The notes under the pieces are model-generated. The model did not search any database. It was not told where the DNA came from and worked only from the letters and a program-made list of their open reading frames with translations. Both the position numbers and the translations under genes were made by a program. DNA of 63,332 nt, filler included, from Chrysochromulina tobinii (lineage: Eukaryota): NCBI GenBank assembly GCA_001275005.1. It is 4 parts of 4 records of this genome, joined end to end, with 100 filler letters (N's around TTAATTAATTAA, not from the genome) between each part and the next. Parts side by side here need not be neighbours in the genome. Positions count along the whole stretch, not along the records: positions 39,474 to 58,759 come from JWZX01001256.1; 3 more parts are not named here. One strand, written 5' to 3'. Positions 18,011 through 58,859 of this stretch are shown piece after piece (the stretch's first letter is position 1; every line of letters starts with the position of its first letter).

Positions 18011-18110
18011 NNNNNNNNNNNNNNNNNNNNNNNNNNNNNNNNNNNNNNNNNNNNTTAATTAATTAANNNNNNNNNNNNNNNNNNNNNNNNNNNNNNNNNN
18101 NNNNNNNNNN
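18011..18110. other. Artificial contig spacer (N44-TTAATTAATTAA-N44)
   Basis: Identical 100-nt spacer occurs three times; the core gives stops in all six frames. Confidence 0.97.
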
Positions 18111-37859: not shown

Positions 37860-39373
37860 ATGGGCCACCAGCGCAAGGTCGAGAAGTCGATCACGCAGGT
37901 GAAGGAGTCACGCCAAGCGGCGAACCTTCTGTTCGGCCACTGCCTCGCCCAATCTTGCTGTGCCCAAGACGAGGTGCGCATCTGTCGCCGCCCGCCAGCT
38001 GTGCCGCACGCTGCCTTTGACACCTGGCTGCTAGCACCCTTGATGCAGCTGTGCGCGATGCTATATGTGTGCGCGTGCGCCCGCTTTCCGGTTGCCAGGT
38101 ACTTGAATCGACGCCAAGCGCCGACAAGAAGCTCGACAAGCTCCGAAGCTTTGTGACCTGCGTGTGCTCCAACGAGTCGTGCAGCATGGGCCGCCAGATG
38201 CACCTGGCGTGCTTCGAGGACATGACGCGACGTCTCATGCTGAACGTCACCTTGAACAAGGAGACCACTCTTCACAGTTGGCTGCGCCAGGAGACGAATA
38301 CCAAGGACGGCACCCGGCTCCTCGAGTTCAGGGCGAATGTGTCGGCGAGTGACCCTCTGCGGCTTGCGAACAAGATCTGGCAGCACTCGCGCGAGAGCGC
38401 GATCCTGAGCATCTGCAAGTGCCGCTGCGGCGTAGGCCACCTCCGATACGAGCCCGACGCGTGTGCGAGCTGCGCCGGCGCCGAGCCCGACGTCGACGAA
38501 ACCGAGCTCAAGCGGCGCGAGAAGCAGTTCGCCATCGAGGAGCGCTCGCGCCAGGCAAAGGAGGAGGAGGCCAAACGTCGGAACGAGGAGCGCGAGAAGA
38601 GGCGAGCGGCGTCGCTGTTAGCGTCGCTGCAGCATACGGAGCAGGCGCTCCGAGCGCGCGAGGAGAAGGCGGCGCGCGAGCGCGGTCAGGATGTGCTCGC
38701 GAGCGCCTTCGAACCGGGCAAGCCGTGGGCGTCCATGCGCGCGGCGCGCCCCGCCGCTTCCGCCGCGCCCGGCGCCCCCGGTGCGCCCAAGTCGCTCTCA
38801 TCGCTCTCGCCCGTGGGGTCGTCGACCTCGCCACACACGAGCGAGCGCAAGGGCAAGTGCTCTGGCTGGTCCTCGTCGTGGAGCCTCGATGCGCCCGACG
38901 AGGAGGCACGCGCATTCTTGTGGACACCGCCCGCCTCCCCCACGCTCTTCCCAAGCGAGCTGGCGGCGATGAGCTCCGCGTGCGCGTCGCCGACCAAGGT
39001 GTACCGCACGCCAACACAGCGCGTGGAGGACCCGCGCCTTGCGAAGCTGCGCGCCGACGGCGACGCGGCGCGCGAGGCGAGGGCCAAGGCGGAGCGGCTG
39101 AAGAAGGAGGCTGAGGCGGCGGCGGCGGCTGAGTGGACTGCCAAGGCGGCCGGCGGGCTCCCAGGCACCTCGACGGCGGACGCGCACTTCGTCAAGCTGC
39201 GCGGGCTGCCGTACCAGATAAACGAGCAGCAGATCTCGGCCTTCTTCCAGCCACTCTTCGTGGTCGCGGTGCAGATCGCCTTCAGCCCGAGCCGCCAGCC
39301 CTCGGGCTTCGGTTACGTGCAGTTCCGCACGCCCGAAGATACCACGCAGGCGCTCCACCGCACCAACCAGGTG
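37860..39373 (+). CDS. Headcase-like Cys/His domain + coiled coil + RRM (hnRNP F/H-ESRP type); 3' end in gap
   Basis: Intron 37974-38098; CSNESC...MHLACFE...W...CKCRCGVGHLR; FVKLRGLPY...SGFGYVQF. Confidence 0.7.
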
Positions 39374-39473
39374 NNNNNNNNNNNNNNNNNNNNNNNNNNN
39401 NNNNNNNNNNNNNNNNNTTAATTAATTAANNNNNNNNNNNNNNNNNNNNNNNNNNNNNNNNNNNNNNNNNNNN
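39374..39473. other. Artificial contig spacer
   Basis: N44-TTAATTAATTAA-N44. Confidence 0.97.
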
Positions 39474-42400
39474 GGAGGGGGAGGGGGGAGGGGAGGAGGG
39501 GATCGGGGGCAAGTGAAGGCAAGGGAGGACGAGACTGGAGAATAGGGGAGGGGTGTGGGGAATCTCGCACGCACCTCCGAGGTGAAGTCGTCATAGAGCG
39601 CGGGAAGCTCGTGTGGAAGTATCTTTGCCATCACCTCCATGCCCGCCTTCGTCGCCGCTTTGGCCGCCTTGAGCTCGGCCGCCGAGATCTTCCCATCACC
39701 GTCCATGTCGATTGCATGCACCTGTGGGGAGAGGGGCGGCGCGCCGTGACGAGCACTTGCATGCGCGTCCATGTCGATCGCGTGCACCTTGTTCTGACGA
39801 AGCCACTTCTTCGGTGCCAGGGGCGCCATCGTGGGCGCCCGCGTCAAGAGCCTTAGGTCCACATGGCGCTGCAGCATGTGCTGGAAGGCCGCCTTCTCCG
39901 TGTCGTCCTGGTGGGGTTGGAGGCGCGAGGTGGCGCTCATCTCGAGCGCGGAGCCCTTCGAGACCTCGGTCGCGATGGCGTTCTTGTAAATCTCGCCCAC
40001 CTGCATGTGATGAGGGAGGCCATCAGCATGCAATGAGGGAGGCCATCAGCATGAAATGAGGGTTGAATGAGGGCAACCCAGCAGGCCATCAGCATGCAAT
40101 AAGTCGCTCTCATTGGAGTCCTTCCCCAGTGCCCAATTAGGGACGCTCTCATTGGAGTCCTCCCCTAGTGCCTAATTAGGGACGCTCTCATTGGAGTCCT
40201 CCCCTAGTGCCTTATTAGGGACGCTCTCAGGGGAGCCTCGAGTGGGGCGGCGCTGCTCACCGTATTGACGAACTCGAGGCGCGCTGCACTGCTGCGCTGC
40301 TTCGGCGTGAGTTCCGTCAATCCTTCATCGACGAAACCCTGGGGCGCGATCACGTCGTATCTCTCGGTGCGCAGCCGGTACTTGTAGATCTGGTCGACGA
40401 TCTGATGTGCGCCCATCAGGCACGTCGCCCACCTGCATGCAATGAGGGAGGCAATCAGCATGCAATCAACGATCTGATGTGCGCCCATCAGGCACGTCGC
40501 CCACCTGCATGCAATGAGGGAGGCCACCAGCATGCAATGAGGGAGGCAATCAGCATGGCAGTTACTTTTGGCGAGGGCGCATTTGCAGCTTCAGCATGCA
40601 ATGGGGGAGGCAATCAGCATGGCAGTTACTTTTGGCGAGGGCGCATTTGCAGCTTCAGCGCACCGACGGCCGTTGAGAGCATGGGCAGAAGGATGACGAA
40701 GAGTCCCCACCATGTCATGCCCGCTACGGCGCCTCGATCGGCCGCGATGGTGCTCACGACAGCGCCCACTCCATCGCCGCCCGCGACGGCGCCTCCCTCG
40801 CCCGCGACGGCGTCTCGATCGGCCGCGTCTTCGCCTTCGCCACCCCATGTGCCATTCATCATCTCGTCGCGAGATTCACCCTCGGATTCACCCCGAGATT
40901 CAGGCCCGAGCGCTGCACCGAGCGCAATCTCGCACCCCTCGGCAGTGTACAGGATGGCCACGGTGGTCGAGATGATGGCGAGCGCATAGAGGAGGATCTG
41001 CAGCCGGTCGCCCACCTGCATGCAATGCCAATGGGGGAGGCAATCAGCCTGCAATATCAGCCTGCAATCTCGGCATGCAATCTCGGCATGCAATCTCGGC
41101 ATGCAATCGGCTGCAATCAGCTCATTGGCCACCTGCTTGAACTTGGTAGCATTCTCCCACAGGATCATGTGACGCTTCCATGCAGTCAGCACGCAGAGTA
41201 CCTGCACCACACCGTGACTGCGATCCTCAGCGTGCAAACAGGCGCCATCCGCATGCAATCACACCCGCAATCAGCCCGCAATCAGCATGCAATCCGGATG
41301 AAATCGACCTCGGCCTCGCCGAGCCCGAGCTCGTGGATGATGGCGCAATCACACCCGCAATCATCATGCAATCAGGATGCAATCAGGATGCAATCACCTC
41401 GGCCTCGCCGAGCCCGAGCTCGTGGATGATGGCGCAATCACACCCGCAATCATCATGCAATCAGGATGCAATCAGGATGCAATCACCTCGGCCTCGCCGA
41501 GCCCGAGCTCGTGGATGATGGCGCCGCCCGAGAAGCACGTGAATAGTACCGAGAGCACCTGCATGCAATGAGGGAGGCCATCAGCATGCAATGAGGGAGG
41601 CCATCAGCATGCAATGAGGGAGGCCATCAGCATGCAATGAGAGCACCTGCTCCGATGCGTCTGCCATCACGTCGACAGACATGATCGTATTCTTGAGCAG
41701 TACGGGCGCGCGCTGGTGCAGTTCCTTGAGCATCACGATCTCGGGCAGCCCAAAGAGTTTCGTCCACGCCGCTCCCGACGTGAGCTCGCACCTGATGAGG
41801 TTGGCAATCAGCCAATGCGATCAGCATGCACTCAAGACAGCCCACCCACACAGAGAGTTTCGTCCACGCCGCAGCCGAGCTGTGAGCTCGCGCACATCGT
41901 GATGAGCTCGCTTGCCGAGGGCGATGGCAGCTGTGAAAGCAAGCCGCGACGTAGCGAGGCGAAGGCTTGGGTGACGGAGCCCGTCTGATCGAGAAGGACA
42001 ACAGACTTGCCCGTCTGTGCTCACGCGAGCGAGGGGGCACCGCATCCAAATTAGGGCATCGCATCCAAATTAGGGTATCGCATCCAAATTAGGGCATCGC
42101 ACCCAAGACGCTCAGCGCGACGCCGCGGCACCGCGAGCGACCGACGCACCCACACCGCTGATCAGTCGCACAATCAGGCTCGCTCAGGCGCGCTCTTGGA
42201 CGTAGAGAGATCCCCCACCTGAAGCAGCTGCTTGAGGCGTGGAAGCATAGCCGCAATCAGCATGCAATCAGCATGCAATCACCTGAAGCAGCTGCTTGAG
42301 GCGTGGAAGCATAGCCGCTTGGCCGTTGGCGACGAGATAGCCCAACGGCCCGACGGCGGATAGGTCGGGAGCGTCGAGCACCTGATGAGGGACGCAATCA

Positions 42401-44097
42401 GCATGCACTCAGGGAGGCACTCAGGGTACGTCACCTGATGATGAGGGACGCAATCAGCATGCTGATGAGGGATGCAATCCACAGTGCACTCGGCATGCAA
42501 TCAGCATGCTGATGAGGGATGCAATCCACAGTGCACTCGGCATGCTATCCTATGCACCGAATCCAGCAAGATGTAATGAGTGCCCCGGTTGAACAAGGTC
42601 TGCATGTAGTGAAGGCCCCACTTCTCACGAGGCGAGAAGAGGCCGTCGTGACCGAGCATCGCCTCGTCTGCGTTGCGTGGCACCTGCATGCTGCTGAAGG
42701 TCGATGGGTCCCTGACGAGGGTCGCAATCAATAGGGCGCTCGTTGGAGCACTCCAAGGCACTCACACAAGCAATCACACAAGCAAGCCGATGTCCACGAT
42801 TACATGTAATCCTCCACATCATAGAATTGCGAAATCGTCTCGCAATCCGGCGGCTCATCGGAACCCAACGGCCTCGCGCCCCTTCGGATGAGCGTGCACT
42901 TATCGAGGCACGACTGCGTAATGGGTGCCACGCCGCCCCGTTCGCCCCCTTCGCCCCGGCTCTGCAGTCCGTGAAGTCTCTCCATGGAGTCGATCACCAC
43001 AATCGGGGGCCGCGAGTCCGTCAGCTTCATCGCCGCCTCGATGAGTAACGCCGCTGCGGGCGAGGGGCTCAATTAGAGAGCAATTAGAGCGCAATTAGAG
43101 CGCAATTAGAGCGCAATTAGGGGGCAATTCGAGCGCAATTAGAGGGCTCTCCGCATAGTCACTCACCTGAGGGCGAGGGGCTCTGCACGTAGTCCACGAT
43201 CAACCAGTTGGGCGTGCGCGAGAGGGTCGTGGCCGCATCCAGCAGCGCCGCAAAGACGTTCACCAGCTTCGCGAACAGGATCTCATTGATGATCTTGAGG
43301 GCGAACTCGTTCACACCCTCAAGGCATCCGGCGCCCTCGTTCACACCGGCCCGAAGCGCCTGTTGTTGGGCGGCGGCCCGAAAGCTGCTGAACGAGGGAA
43401 GGGCAATCAGCCCCGGCGTGGCAAAGTCTTTCGGATGGAGGTGTCCCGCGTCCGAGACGATGAGCGTCTTGGGTGGATCTAGTCTCCAATGTCCAACGAA
43501 CAGGCGCTGTAGCTGCGCCGACGATAGGACATGGCGCTGGCCTGAGCGCCTGTCCTTCGGCACGAAGCAGACCTTCGTGCGCTGTCCAGTCTCCTTGCAG
43601 ATGTACTCGCCGCACGTGAGCGTCTGGTCGCCATCGCCGTCCTTCTCGTCGGCCTCGCGCTCGGCCTCCACCAGCTTCGTCGATCCAATCTCGCCGAGCT
43701 CGGCCTCCACCAGCTTCGTCGATCCGATCTCACCGAGCTCGGCCTCTACCGGCATGCCGTCGCTTGTGGGCGGCGCGGCCTCGGCGGGAGGTGATGCAAG
43801 GGACGGCTCGGCTCGAGCGGAGAGGTAGCCGTCAAGGTCTGTGTTGCTGGGCATGCGCATCGAAAATCCGGAGTCCACGCCAAAGCCTGGGTCGGGCGCA
43901 GATGGCGCGTACCGATCCTGCTGCGCCGGCGTCCACGATGCGGTCAGCTCCGTGGCGCTCGAGCCTGGCTCAAACGTGGGCGCAGCCCGCCTGGGTGGAC
44001 GCGCCGCCGCCGCTGACAGATGCCGCATCGCCGCATCCACAAATTGCAGCTGGACGTCATCGTCCATGTCACTGGCGGCCGGGACCGTTGTCGCCAT
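39474..44097 (-). CDS. SLOG (LSDAT/TRPM-N-like) + SLATT two-TM effector + EF-hand protein, at least 12 exons, 3' end in gap
   Basis: Spliced motifs WRLDPPKTLIVSDAG, RGTHYILLD, LGYLVANG, GKSVVLLDQTGSVTQAF (SLOG-like); AWKRHMILWENATKFK..DRLQILLYALAIIST, LFVILLPMLSTAVGAL....P.QKWATCLMGAHQIVDQIYKYRLRTERY (SLATT-like); DMDGDGKISAAEL (EF-hand). Confidence 0.75.
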
Positions 44098-44219: not shown

Positions 44220-47059
44220 TCACACCGCCCACAGGTGCAACGCTCGATCATAAAACGAGCACGTCGCTGCGACCATACGCTCGCCCGTCTCGGCGCCCCT
44301 GGAGGTTGCCCCCGCCGCCTCCACCGCCGACCCCCCAGATGGCGGCTGGACGATGGATCCGGCGAGGACGACGCCAAGGAACGTGCCCGTGCCCTCGTCA
44401 CGCAAAGGGGCCACAAACGACACCAGCCGATCTCCGGTGGCTGGGTCAACGTAAGGGTCAGTCCAGCGAGCCTCGGCCGAGATTGGATCTCCCTCGGCCG
44501 AGATTGAATCTCCCTCAGCCGAGATTGAATCTCCTTCGGCCGAGATTGAATCTCGAAAGGCGACGAGCCAGGGCCGCGAGCGCACGTCCCAGGTGGCGCC
44601 GTCCTGAGCGCGCCACTCGTAGATCACGTCGCCCTCCTCACCTGCACTCAGACGCCATCAGACGCAATCAGACACACTCGGACACAATCAGACGCAATCA
44701 CAGAGGCAATCAGACGCAATCAGAGGCCATCAGAGGCCATCAGAGACACTCAGAGGCCATCAGAGGCCATCAGACGCAATCAGAGGCCATCAGAGGGCTC
44801 ACCGAGACAGCGCCAGACGCCAGGCTCCCCCACTGTCATCGTCAACGTCGAGCCATAAGCGAGCTCGCCTGATGAGGGAGGCCATCAGAGGCTCATCAGC
44901 ATGCAATCGTCAACGTCGAGCCATATGCGAGCTCGCCTGAGCTCGAGAGGATCTCGCGATCAGACGCAATCAGACGCAATCAGACGCAATCAGAGGTCAT
45001 CGTCGAGCCGTATGCGAGCTCGCCTGAGCTCGAGAGGATCTCGCGGTCGATTCCGTATGCCGCGTAGTATGTGCCATCGAGCGCTGACGCGACGCCGAGC
45101 ACCTAATGAGGGAGGCCATCAGAGGGTCATCAGTGTGCAATCAGAGACCATCGAGCGCTGACGCGACGCCGAGCACTTCGATCGAGAGAGGGGCGTCCCT
45201 AAACAGGCAATCACCTTCGAGTGAGAGAGGGACGTCCCTAAATAGGCAAGCAGCGCCGTCGGAATGCATGCACGGATCTTATCGAGCAACGCCTCCCGCC
45301 CGTGTGAGAGCGGCTCGGCTCCAAGACAGTCACGCAGCTTCAAAGCCGCCGACTCACACGCGTGACGCAGCAGCTGTTCAGAGCCCTCGGAGGTCCTTGC
45401 CTGATTAGGAGTGCCGTCGGAGGTCCTTGCCTTATTAGGAGAGCGCCGCCAGTCTGCACCGTATCCGAGGCCGCCCGCGCCAAGCCCGTGGGCCGTGTAC
45501 TTCGCAATCTGCTCGAGGGTCACGACGAGATTCTTAGTCACCACCTCCTTCTCCTTCTCCACCTCGCCCACCACCTCGTCCTTCTCCTCCTCCTCCTCCT
45601 CCGCCACCACCGCCCGGAGCACGGCGAATCCCGCATGCATACGCGCTGCTAAGAGCACCTTCGGACGCTCCGGATGCCATCGGAGACGCCACACGCCACC
45701 GCCGTCGCCGCCCTCCTCGGCAAGGGGCGCGCGGAGCTGCCGCGTGTCCCACAGGCGGACGGTTTCGTCATAGGAGCCCGTCGCGAGCAGGTGCTCGTGA
45801 TCGGGACAGGGCGCGATGCAGCACACCTGATGCAAACGGGCCATCAGAGCCGCAATCAGCATGCAAACGAGCCATCAGAACCGCAATCCGCATGCAAATG
45901 GGCCATCAGAGCCGCAATCAGCATGCAAATGGGCCATCAGAGCCGCAATCAGCAGATGCCCGTGATCGGGGCAGGGCGCGATGCAATACAGCAGCAGCAT
46001 GCGCTCGAGACGGCGCTCGTCCAGGTGCGCGCCGAGCTGAGCGCCGAGCTGAGCGCCGAGCTGAGCGCTAGCTGGGAGGCGCGCCTGGCGGCGGTGGAGG
46101 CGGAGCGTTTGGGCTGGCGCTCAACACGGCGCGTGAGGGCTGGCGCGAGGCGGCGGCCCTGTGTGGATTTCCAATTGAGTCGCAATCAATGGCCAATCCA
46201 TGGCCAGTCGCACCCCGGCCCTATGCGGATTTCCAATTGAGTCGCAATCAATGGCCAATCCATGGCCAGTCGCACCCCGGCCCTATGCGGATTTCCAATT
46301 GAGTTGCAAGCAATGGCCAATCAATGGCCAATCAACGGCCAGTCGCACCCCGGCCCTATGCGATTTGCGGTTGGTCGCCGTCGCCGAGGGTGTTCCACAG
46401 CCACCGTCGTCGTCGATGGCAGTGCGCAGATCCCAACGCTTGAAGAGGCCGTCGTCTGCGCCCGAGTAGAGCGTGTGCTCGTCATGCCATCCGAACGCCA
46501 CTGCCCAGCCCTCCAGCTCATGCGCCTGCCACGCCGTCAGCAGCCGAAGACCGCCCTCAGCTAGAGCACCGACGTATACCTTGCCTGCGGTGCTGCTGAG
46601 TGCGAGGCGTGTGAAGGGCGTGTCACTCCATGCGAGGCTCATGCACACGCCCGCATCCTCACACGCCATACTTCCGGCGTCCACGAGCTCCGATCCGCGC
46701 CCGTTTCCATCCGCGCACCCAGCGGCGGCAGCAGCGTCGGCACCGCGCAGCGAGTAGAGATGCGCAGTTCCCGCGGCGGTGGCGAGCGCGAGCACGTGAG
46801 GTCCACCAGGCCGAGGGGGTAGCCACGCGCAGTCCAGGACGCCGGTGCCCTCGATCGCATGGGTCTCGACAAGTGCGTCCGCCGCGGTGGAAAGCAGCGC
46901 GAGCCTCCCGATGCGCCCTCCACTCACCGTTGATGGATCCGCGTCCGGAGTCAGTTCGTAGCTCCCACAAGCCAGCAGATGCTCGTGCCCCTCGTAGGGG
47001 CAGAAGGCAACAACGTCCGCGTTCAGAGGCGTTCCCTGCGAGGCAAGGGTGGTGGGCAT
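44220..47059 (-). CDS. DPH7: Diphthine methylesterase DPH7/WDR85 (WD40) with an internal Cache-like insertion
   Basis: ADVVAFCP, LACGSYEL, GVLDCAW, AHELEGW, YSGADDG...WDLR, H.AGVCCI, LATGSYDE.VRLWD.R, GGGVWRLRWHP, MHAGF, YGADW, and terminal ATCSFYDRALHLW. Intron 46348-45827 plus others. Confidence 0.88.
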
Positions 47060-58759: not shown

Positions 58760-58859
58760 NNNNNNNNNNNNNNNNNNNNNNNNNNNNNNNNNNNNNNNNN
58801 NNNTTAATTAATTAANNNNNNNNNNNNNNNNNNNNNNNNNNNNNNNNNNNNNNNNNNNN
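58760..58859. other. Artificial contig spacer
   Basis: N44-TTAATTAATTAA-N44. Confidence 0.97.

What the first reader, a model, noticed from the sequence alone, without database searches (positions are those of the whole stretch)
39474..44097. Eukaryotic SLOG/LSDAT-SLATT fusion with an EF-hand, hidden by about a dozen introns
Seen after manual splicing: a TRPM-N/LSDAT-like SLOG domain (W.L.PP..++, THYILLD, LVANG, SVVLLDQTG), then AW....WENA.KF....RLQ+LL..LA++ST (TM1), LFVILLP+LST+V.AL (TM2) and KW.....A..I...IY.YR.RT..Y, which is the SLATT/DUF4231 pattern. An EF-hand loop (DMDGDGKISAAE) and a DDFTS motif follow; the latter may begin a second SLATT past the gap. Known: SLOG domains bind or process nucleotides (ThsA, TRPM N-terminus), and LSDAT-SLATT fusions are predicted pore-forming effectors of bacterial nucleotide-signalling conflict systems. 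Inference: an algal nucleotide- and Ca2+-gated membrane effector, possibly for antiviral or cell-death defence.
Basis: partly seen in the sequence, partly recalled or inferred. Interest (0 to 1): 0.8.

Follow-up and report, generated by a model that had tools for sequence, protein, structure and literature searches.

The report
Algal TRPM-like sensor, bacterial-type pore
A spliced, transcribed gene of the alga Chrysochromulina belongs to a large plankton protein family that joins a domain predicted to fold like the nucleotide-sensing head of animal TRPM channels to two bacterial-type SLATT membrane hairpins, so it is likely a small-molecule-gated membrane channel inherited from bacterial signalling systems; its ligand and any antiviral role are untested.

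Summary
The gene is real. It lies on the minus strand: 12 exons give 919 codons without a stop, and RNA contigs skip all 11 introns. One contig runs from the SLOG region past the EF-hand and into a second SLATT module beyond the contig join. It matches Chrysochromulina tobinii Ctob_010612, whose public model is partial and mis-spliced. Full-length relatives form a large family (468 clusters; haptophyte, pelagophyte, dinoflagellate and cercozoan names) built as N-domain–DUF4231–SLATT_1. Pfam misses the N-domain, but a relative's model (pLDDT 95.8) matches TRPM MHR1/2 (Foldseek E 6e-8). The family is colinear with bacterial LSDAT–DUF4231–SLATT_1 fusions (hhalign 99.8%). Two qualifications: the SLOG pocket is remodelled (no arginine at the TRPM2 R358 position), and the EF-hand is a single loop in the least conserved linker, not a family trait. 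Best reading: a likely nucleotide-gated four-helix membrane channel or effector. Defence is possible but has no direct support. It is a eukaryotic variant of a known bacterial architecture; I found no description of it, but could not read Burroughs 2015.

The parts
39575..44097 (-). Gene, 5' 12 exons: 44097-43167, 43053-42804, 42711-42558, 42381-42283, 42014-41896, 41791-41647, 41558-41487, 41201-41133, 41015-40630, 40432-40261, 40000-39788, 39721-39575 (919 codons, open at the 3' end)
   Evidence: no stops, all GT-AG; RNA joints at all 11 intron lengths; start codon inferred from relatives P0002-P0003
43618..44097 (-). Low-complexity N-terminal extension (aa 1-160), with a 13-residue tandem repeat
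   Evidence: not aligned to relatives
41172..43617 (-). Divergent SLOG domain of the TRPM MHR1/2 (LSDAT) fold plus helical connector (aa ~161-600, exons 1-8)
39911..41192 (-). SLATT module 1 (DUF4231-like; aa ~594-829): amphipathic helix, TM1, acidic loop, TM2, KW...IYKYR.RT motif
   Evidence: bacterial-fusion profile 38.6 bits vs 0.0 for shuffles; Pfam DUF4231 in relatives
40941..40997 (-). TM1 (aa 620-638)
   Evidence: hydropathy 2.06
40650..40706 (-). TM2 (aa 717-735); missing from the public model Ctob_010612
   Evidence: hydropathy 1.91
39674..39709 (-). Single canonical EF-hand loop (aa 875-886) in the inter-module linker; specific to this copy
   Evidence: Pfam EF-hand_5 27 bits; not found at this site in relatives; linker conservation 0.22
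39575..39592 (-). First residues of SLATT module 2 (SLATT_1-like); the rest lies beyond the contig join
   Evidence: same motif opens module 2 in 29 of 94 long sequences by a strict pattern; RNA loose end continues it
39474..39574 (-). Start of intron 12, cut by the contig end
   Evidence: GT donor at 39574; RNA contigs leave the window sequence here
39374..39473 (.). N-linker with an all-frame stop spacer; inferred to be an artificial contig join, so DNA to its left is not this gene's continuation
   Evidence: three such linkers in the window; an unrelated plus-strand gene ends at its left side

Best explanation
The gene encodes a member of a plankton protein family built as SLOG-fold domain, SLATT hairpin, linker, SLATT hairpin, and the protein likely works as a ligand-gated membrane channel: a small nucleotide-type messenger would bind the cytosolic SLOG clamshell and would open an oligomer of the four predicted membrane helices. 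Shown: splicing, transcription in related strains, architecture, homology to bacterial LSDAT-DUF4231-SLATT_1 fusions. Predicted on a relative: the TRPM MHR1/2-like fold. Inferred: topology (N-terminus inside, acidic TM1-TM2 loop outside or luminal, inter-module linker inside), oligomeric pore, and coupling through the conserved helical connector. The ligand is probably NAD-derived or another adenine nucleotide but is probably not held as TRPM2 holds ADPR. In this copy a lone EF loop in the cytosolic linker may add Ca2+ tuning. I favour a routine signalling or stress role over dedicated suicide defence.
For: Fold: all 45 Foldseek rows shown are TRPM chains, including isolated MHR1/2 and MHR1-3 structures; best E 5.6e-8, query TM 0.34-0.46; 142 matches at E<=0.001. 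Weak but concordant sequence signals: 11 of 15 PDB hits at E<=10 are TRPM; atlas top hits LSDAT at 0.79, lead only. Colinear hhalign from the last SLOG strands through both SLATT modules, 99.8%, E 1e-27; the bacterial partner is LSDAT_prok-DUF4231-SLATT_1 at Pfam cutoffs. Conserved polar residues in the N-domain (H74 98%, D150 95%, R151 97%, R184 96%, H285 94%, R318 91%, N334 93%; P0006 numbering) fit a binding pocket. Known: MHR1/2 binds ADPR and gates TRPM2 (PMC6759353, passages); SLATT proteins are proposed nucleotide-activated membrane effectors (10.64898/2025.12.03.692087 and PMC9503650, passages). For a routine role: 468 clusters, names from four eukaryote lineages, two copies in C. tobinii, and 17 synonymous vs 5 non-synonymous strain differences outside the TM1-TM2 loop (39 of 113 differences only).
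Against: No ligand, pore or gating data exist. Canonical LSDAT motifs are replaced: bacterial GG and DGGT..G (91-100%) have no glycine-rich match in the family by my reading, and the bacterial R (70%) at the TRPM2 R358 position is G in 91% of the family and S in this copy. Pfam LSDAT cutoffs are never reached, and hhalign to the bacterial SLOG alone is only 52%. This copy departs from consensus at 10 of 69 conserved columns, against 1-2 in its closest full-length relatives, so its own pocket may be altered or dead. The fold was modelled on P0006 (48.6% identical), not on the window's protein. The 3' end of the gene is not in the window.
Confidence: 0.55

Rival explanations
1. It is a dedicated immune effector: a virus-induced TIR/NADase signal opens the pore and kills or arrests the infected algal cell, as proposed for Thoeris type VII and CBASS SLATT effectors.
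For: Homology to bacterial fusions. TIR or DUF4062 genes lie within 3 kb in 6 of 23 sampled bacterial fusion loci (63 of 112 selected ORFs scanned). SLATT is the effector in type VII Thoeris (10.64898/2025.12.03.692087, passages). Paralogues exist and this copy has a divergent pocket.
Against: 17 of 23 bacterial loci showed no TIR-like neighbour among the ORFs scanned. No TIR or NADase was found in 11 window frames scanned, though gene order says little in eukaryotes. Broad conservation and mostly synonymous strain differences outside one loop do not look like an arms race. No infection data.
Confidence: 0.25
2. The SLOG domain is a membrane-anchored enzyme (LOG-like nucleotide hydrolase) or a ligand-free scaffold, and the hairpins only anchor and oligomerise it.
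For: The pocket is remodelled with conserved His, Asp and Arg residues. Some SLOG clades are enzymes (PMC9503650, passages). Two relatives (P0032, P0053) carry the N-domain with an EF-hand pair and no predicted TM helix.
Against: Both SLATT modules are as conserved as the SLOG domain (0.45-0.48 vs 0.48), more than an anchor needs. The structural matches shown are TRPM sensor domains, not LOG enzymes; the wider structure search could not be run.
Confidence: 0.15
3. This copy is a derived paralogue whose nucleotide site has decayed and which is gated mainly by Ca2+ through its EF loop, or by pairing with the second paralogue.
For: 10 of 69 conserved columns are changed, including R151, E160, H257, Y273, N334 and G337, in the one copy that gained an EF loop in the linker. 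EF-hands were added to 4 of 51 other members at other sites.
Against: The EF loop is unpaired and falls below the Pfam cutoff in context. 14.5% departures lies inside the family range (0-42%). No model coordinates were available to show that the changed residues line one pocket.
Confidence: 0.15

Closest known systems
Bacterial LSDAT_prok-DUF4231-SLATT_1 fusions (e.g. WP_341472297.1, Ca. Chlorohelix plasmid; Pfam PF18171 + PF14015 + PF18181)
   Same: Same three-part order and four predicted TM helices; colinear profile alignment across the SLOG-SLATT junction and both hairpins.
   Different: The eukaryotic N-domain is about 430 aa against about 250, and lacks the canonical glycine and GSGR motifs. 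Loops and linker are long and variable. 45 eukaryotic and 25 bacterial sequences split cleanly (support 1.0, branch 1.46). No operon context.
TRPM channels, MHR1/2 (LSDAT_euk) domain; TRPM2 ADPR site
   Same: Predicted fold of the N-domain; cytosolic sensor placed before a membrane module.
   Different: No six-helix TRP pore, TRP box or NUDT9-H (no such Pfam hit). The R358 position is Gly or Ser. By sequence the bacterial LSDAT domains are far closer to TRPM (E 4e-30) than this family is (E 0.13).
Thoeris type VII (TIR ThsB + SLATT ThsH, cADPR) and type I (SIR2-SLOG ThsA)
   Same: SLATT hairpin effector and SLOG sensor are used in NAD-derived signalling (10.64898/2025.12.03.692087, passages).
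   Different: Here SLOG and two SLATT hairpins are one chain in a eukaryote, with no known cognate TIR and no evidence of defence.

Membership tests
LSDAT family of SLOG domains (TRPM MHR1/2) | TRPM MHR1/2-type Rossmannoid fold | tested here: met
Not modelled on the window's own protein.
LSDAT family of SLOG domains (TRPM MHR1/2) | Pfam LSDAT_euk or LSDAT_prok at the curated cutoff | tested here: not met
   0 of 12 exons, 0 of 7, 0 of 51; sub-cutoff hits in P0021 (E 0.0015) and P0102 (E 0.019).
LSDAT family of SLOG domains (TRPM MHR1/2) | Glycine-rich loops and GSGR.AD motif, with the ADPR-phosphate arginine (TRPM2 R358) | tested here: not met
   hhalign places bacterial GSGr.AD on family NTGGv.Q; position is G 91% in the family, R 70% in bacteria, S in this copy. 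R358 role from PMC6759353. Mapping of the other loops and of Y295/R302 is my reading by eye.
LSDAT family of SLOG domains (TRPM MHR1/2) | Binds a nucleotide ligand | not testable with these tools
   Needs a binding assay.
SLATT superfamily (DUF4231, SLATT_1) | Profile match to SLATT families | tested here: met
   DUF4231 at cutoff in 2 of 7 and 5 of 51; SLATT_1 at cutoff in 3 of 51; either family at E<=0.02 in 29 of 51. Window protein 38.6 bits to a bacterial-fusion profile; its single exons give no Pfam SLATT hit.
SLATT superfamily (DUF4231, SLATT_1) | Two-TM hairpin followed by a helical tail | tested here: met
   TM1 aa 620-638 and TM2 aa 717-735; second hairpin in relatives.
SLATT superfamily (DUF4231, SLATT_1) | Oligomerises into a membrane-breaching assembly | not tested
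Bacterial LSDAT-DUF4231-SLATT_1 fusion architecture | SLOG, DUF4231 and SLATT_1 in this order in one chain | tested here: met
   Full-length relatives. For the window gene, module 2 is shown only at its first residues by RNA.
TRPM channels | Six-helix TRP pore domain | tested here: not met
   Only SLATT hairpins follow the N-domain; no Ion_trans hit in 7 + 51 relatives.
Thoeris-like nucleotide-signalling immune systems | Cognate signal-making TIR or NADase | tested here: inconclusive
   None in 11 window frames scanned; no whole genome held; eukaryotic partners need not be linked.
Thoeris-like nucleotide-signalling immune systems | Protects against virus by cell death or arrest | not testable with these tools
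   Needs infection experiments.
EF-hand Ca2+ sensors | Canonical 12-residue loop | tested here: met
   Pattern match at aa 875-886; EF-hand_5 27 bits on exon 12.
EF-hand Ca2+ sensors | Paired hands, conserved across orthologues | tested here: not met
   EF-hand_7 (pair) below cutoff. 5 of 94 long relatives have a canonical loop, none at this linker site. The exon continues straight into SLATT module 2.

The most novel reading that the evidence does not exclude
Microbial eukaryotes (haptophytes, pelagophytes, dinoflagellates, cercozoans) carry an old, overlooked class of nucleotide-gated channels in which the TRPM-type sensor drives a bacterial SLATT pore instead of a TRP pore. It reads a messenger different from ADPR, repeatedly gains EF-hands, and serves as the effector of a Thoeris-like antiviral or stress pathway in bloom-forming plankton.
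Probability: 0.25. Interest if true: 0.88.

Novelty: new variant of a known kind. Interest (0 to 1): 0.62.

Why it matters
The TRPM sensor domain is thought to come from bacterial SLOG proteins that were later fused to a TRP pore (PMC13143021, passages). This family shows eukaryotes also keeping the bacterial SLOG plus tandem-SLATT layout, in abundant plankton, where Pfam does not see the sensor domain and at least one public gene model is broken. It offers a testable candidate for a non-TRP nucleotide-gated channel and for the effector end of NAD-derived signalling in algae. Intronless relatives and a high-confidence model make ligand screening straightforward.

Tried and rejected
Exon-by-exon Pfam found only the EF-hand. 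A first splice model with acceptor 42684 gave 17 stops and was rejected. Sequence search of PDB with the shallow alignments gave no TRPM hit; the deep one gave only E>=0.13. hhalign of the N-domain to a single bacterial SLOG failed (0.2%). The full-length model was poor (pLDDT 52); its APPL1 BAR match (Z 10.9) to module 2 is treated as a generic helical match. The wide and second-look VIA searches on the good model could not be run, so other SLOG clades such as LOG or ThsA were not compared outside Foldseek's list. No whole genome was held, so no genome-wide search for TIR or NADase genes or further paralogues. The tree cannot name a donor: the bacterial sample came from two motif patterns of two seed proteins, and 24 of 94 rows (including the window protein) were left out for lacking a module. 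No earlier scan finding matched by sequence or by the seven-word query. Burroughs 2015 and Burroughs and Aravind 2020 are not held.
Full report
Gene structure. The gene is on the minus strand. Twelve exons from 44097 to 39575 give 919 codons without a stop, with 11 GT-AG introns of 66-285 nt. A 12th donor at 39574 runs into an N-linker that I read as a contig join. RNA contigs skip stretches of exactly the 11 intron lengths: all 11 in run X13, 10 in X14 (same study), and some in X12 and X15 (other studies). The RNA corrected my first model, which had the wrong acceptor for intron 2. One X13 contig covers exon 2 to exon 12 and runs on for 297 letters; the 30 letters shown give, by hand translation, 10 residues of which 8 equal the start of SLATT module 2 in P0006. 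These contigs come from related strains and cannot alone prove one transcript.

Organism. Exon 9 is 99% identical to Ctob_010612 (partial) of Chrysochromulina tobinii. That public model starts at exon 6, skips exon 8, loses TM2 and ends at the same residue as the window's contig, which explains why it is unannotated.

Family. Seven longer relatives align to the spliced protein at 41-49%; six are complete through both modules and one (P0012) diverges after module 1. Sixteen more loci came from metagenome contigs. A profile of the N-domain found 468 clusters at E<=0.001 among 1.84 billion representatives. Of 20 clusters looked up, 5 named an organism: Chrysochromulina (a second paralogue, Ctob_001738, and C. 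parva), Aureoumbra, Pelagodinium, Dinoflagellata sp. MGD and Mataza; none named a prokaryote. Transcriptome contamination was not excluded for single records.

SLATT part. DUF4231 marks module 1 and SLATT_1 marks module 2. DUF4231 reaches its cutoff in 2 of 7 and 5 of 51 relatives, SLATT_1 in 3 of 51, and one or the other scores E<=0.02 in 29 of 51 (many of the 51 are fragments). A plasmid protein found by tblastn is LSDAT_prok-DUF4231-SLATT_1 at Pfam cutoffs. The family aligns to it and one relative colinearly from the last SLOG strands through both hairpins (99.8%, E 1e-27). A profile of 26 bacterial fusions scores the window's own spliced protein at 38.6 bits against 0.0 for the best of 200 shuffles. 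In a tree of both modules, 45 eukaryotic and 25 bacterial sequences split with support 1.0 and a long branch. This fits an old acquisition, but 24 of 94 rows were left out, the bacterial sample is biased and no donor can be named.

SLOG part. No member reaches a Pfam LSDAT cutoff. The fold supplies the link. A 95-sequence alignment gave a model of the P0006 N-domain at pLDDT 95.8; all 45 Foldseek rows shown are TRPM chains, best E 5.6e-8, including isolated MHR1/2 and MHR1-3 structures. The earlier weak model gave VIA Z 12.4, rmsd 3.8 over 178 residues to TRPM3. Sequence signals agree but are weak: 11 of 15 PDB hits at E<=10 are TRPM, hhalign to 43 bacterial SLOG domains is 52% over the last strands, and the atlas returns LSDAT clusters at 0.79, a lead only.

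The pocket differs. In human TRPM2 the ADPR phosphates contact R358, and Y295 and R302 also take part (PMC6759353, passages). The R358 position is Arg in 70% of the bacterial domains but Gly in 91% of this family and Ser in this copy. By my reading, the glycine-rich loops after strands 1 and 2 and the Y295/R302 helix are also replaced. The family instead conserves its own polar set. This copy departs from consensus at 10 of 69 conserved columns, against 1-2 in P0006 and P0012, within a family range of 0-42%. I had no coordinates to test whether these residues cluster.

EF-hand. The loop is canonical and passes EF-hand_5 on exon 12 alone but not in context. It is unpaired and sits in the least conserved region (0.22 against 0.45-0.48 for the domains; linker length 43-385). 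Five of 94 long relatives have such a loop, none at this site. EF-hands were added elsewhere in 4 of 51 members, so a recurring Ca2+ link is plausible but is not a family trait.

Function. The architecture suggests a ligand-gated membrane channel: cytosolic SLOG clamshell, helical connector, four TM helices in two hairpins (inferred). SLATT proteins are proposed nucleotide-activated membrane effectors (10.64898/2025.12.03.692087 and PMC9503650, passages). For defence the evidence is indirect. TIR or DUF4062 genes were found near 6 of 23 bacterial fusion loci (63 of 112 selected ORFs scanned, 3 kb flanks). None was found in 11 window frames. Strain differences outside the TM1-TM2 loop are 17 synonymous to 5 non-synonymous, and 5 to 12 inside it (39 of 113 differences). 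I put ligand-gated channel in routine signalling at 0.55, dedicated immune effector at 0.25, enzyme or scaffold at 0.15; that this copy has a decayed pocket is a separate 0.15.

Novelty. The bacterial architecture is known from Pfam families. Searches for LSDAT+SLATT (0 papers), SLATT/SLOG/eukaryot/TRPM, SLATT/eukaryot/DUF4231, SLATT domain/pore, SLOG/TRPM2/MHR1 (0 papers) and SLATT/SLOG/fusion/TIR showed no description of a eukaryotic SLOG-tandem-SLATT family in listings or in the passages read. One algal hit is a lone SLATT_4 gene in polinton-like viruses (10.1101/2025.10.09.676808, passages). Burroughs 2015, which defined these families, was not held; it or its supplements may list such fusions. 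For every paper cited I saw listings and passages only.

Verdict. Observation confirmed; interpretation partly supported; new variant of a known kind; interest 0.62.

Noticed in passing
window 39722-43166 (introns 1-11): 6 of 11 introns hold exact 13-38 nt copies of the flanking exon end or start, and 8 of 11 carry short repeated units absent from the exons. These create decoy splice sites and may explain the broken public model. Introners are reported in a Chrysochromulina MAG (10.1101/2022.06.06.494994, passages); I did not test whether these are such elements.
   Followed up: partly
P0018 cluster (P0192 Ctob_001738, P0195 C. parva): A second Chrysochromulina paralogue, 37-40% identical to this copy, is called as a full 956-aa ORF on metagenome contigs, which suggests it lacks introns while this copy has at least 12.
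   Followed up: partly
P0032, P0053, P0046, P0076: Two relatives join the SLOG-like domain to an EF-hand pair with no predicted TM helix; two others carry N-terminal EF-hands. Ca2+ modules were recruited to this family more than once.
   Followed up: partly
P0007: One full-length relative has an N-terminal WW domain.
   Followed up: no
window 43658-43736: A 39-nt tandem repeat in exon 1 varies in copy number: one RNA contig skips 39 nt and P0001 and P0004 have one copy.
   Followed up: no
window 38021-39373 (+): A frame with a Headcase N-terminal match (E 5e-9) and an RRM ends at the contig join; an unusual pairing outside animals, by recall.
   Followed up: no
window 18011-18110, 39374-39473, 58760-58859: Three N-linkers of the same layout; the window is probably several joined contigs, so neighbours across them are not informative.
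   Followed up: partly
window 44223-44654 (-): The gene upstream has a weak dCache_1 match (E 2.5e-4, far below cutoff).
   Followed up: no
L018, L021 (Hymenobacter): The bacterial SLOG-2xSLATT gene sits directly after a glycosyl hydrolase 108 gene.
   Followed up: no
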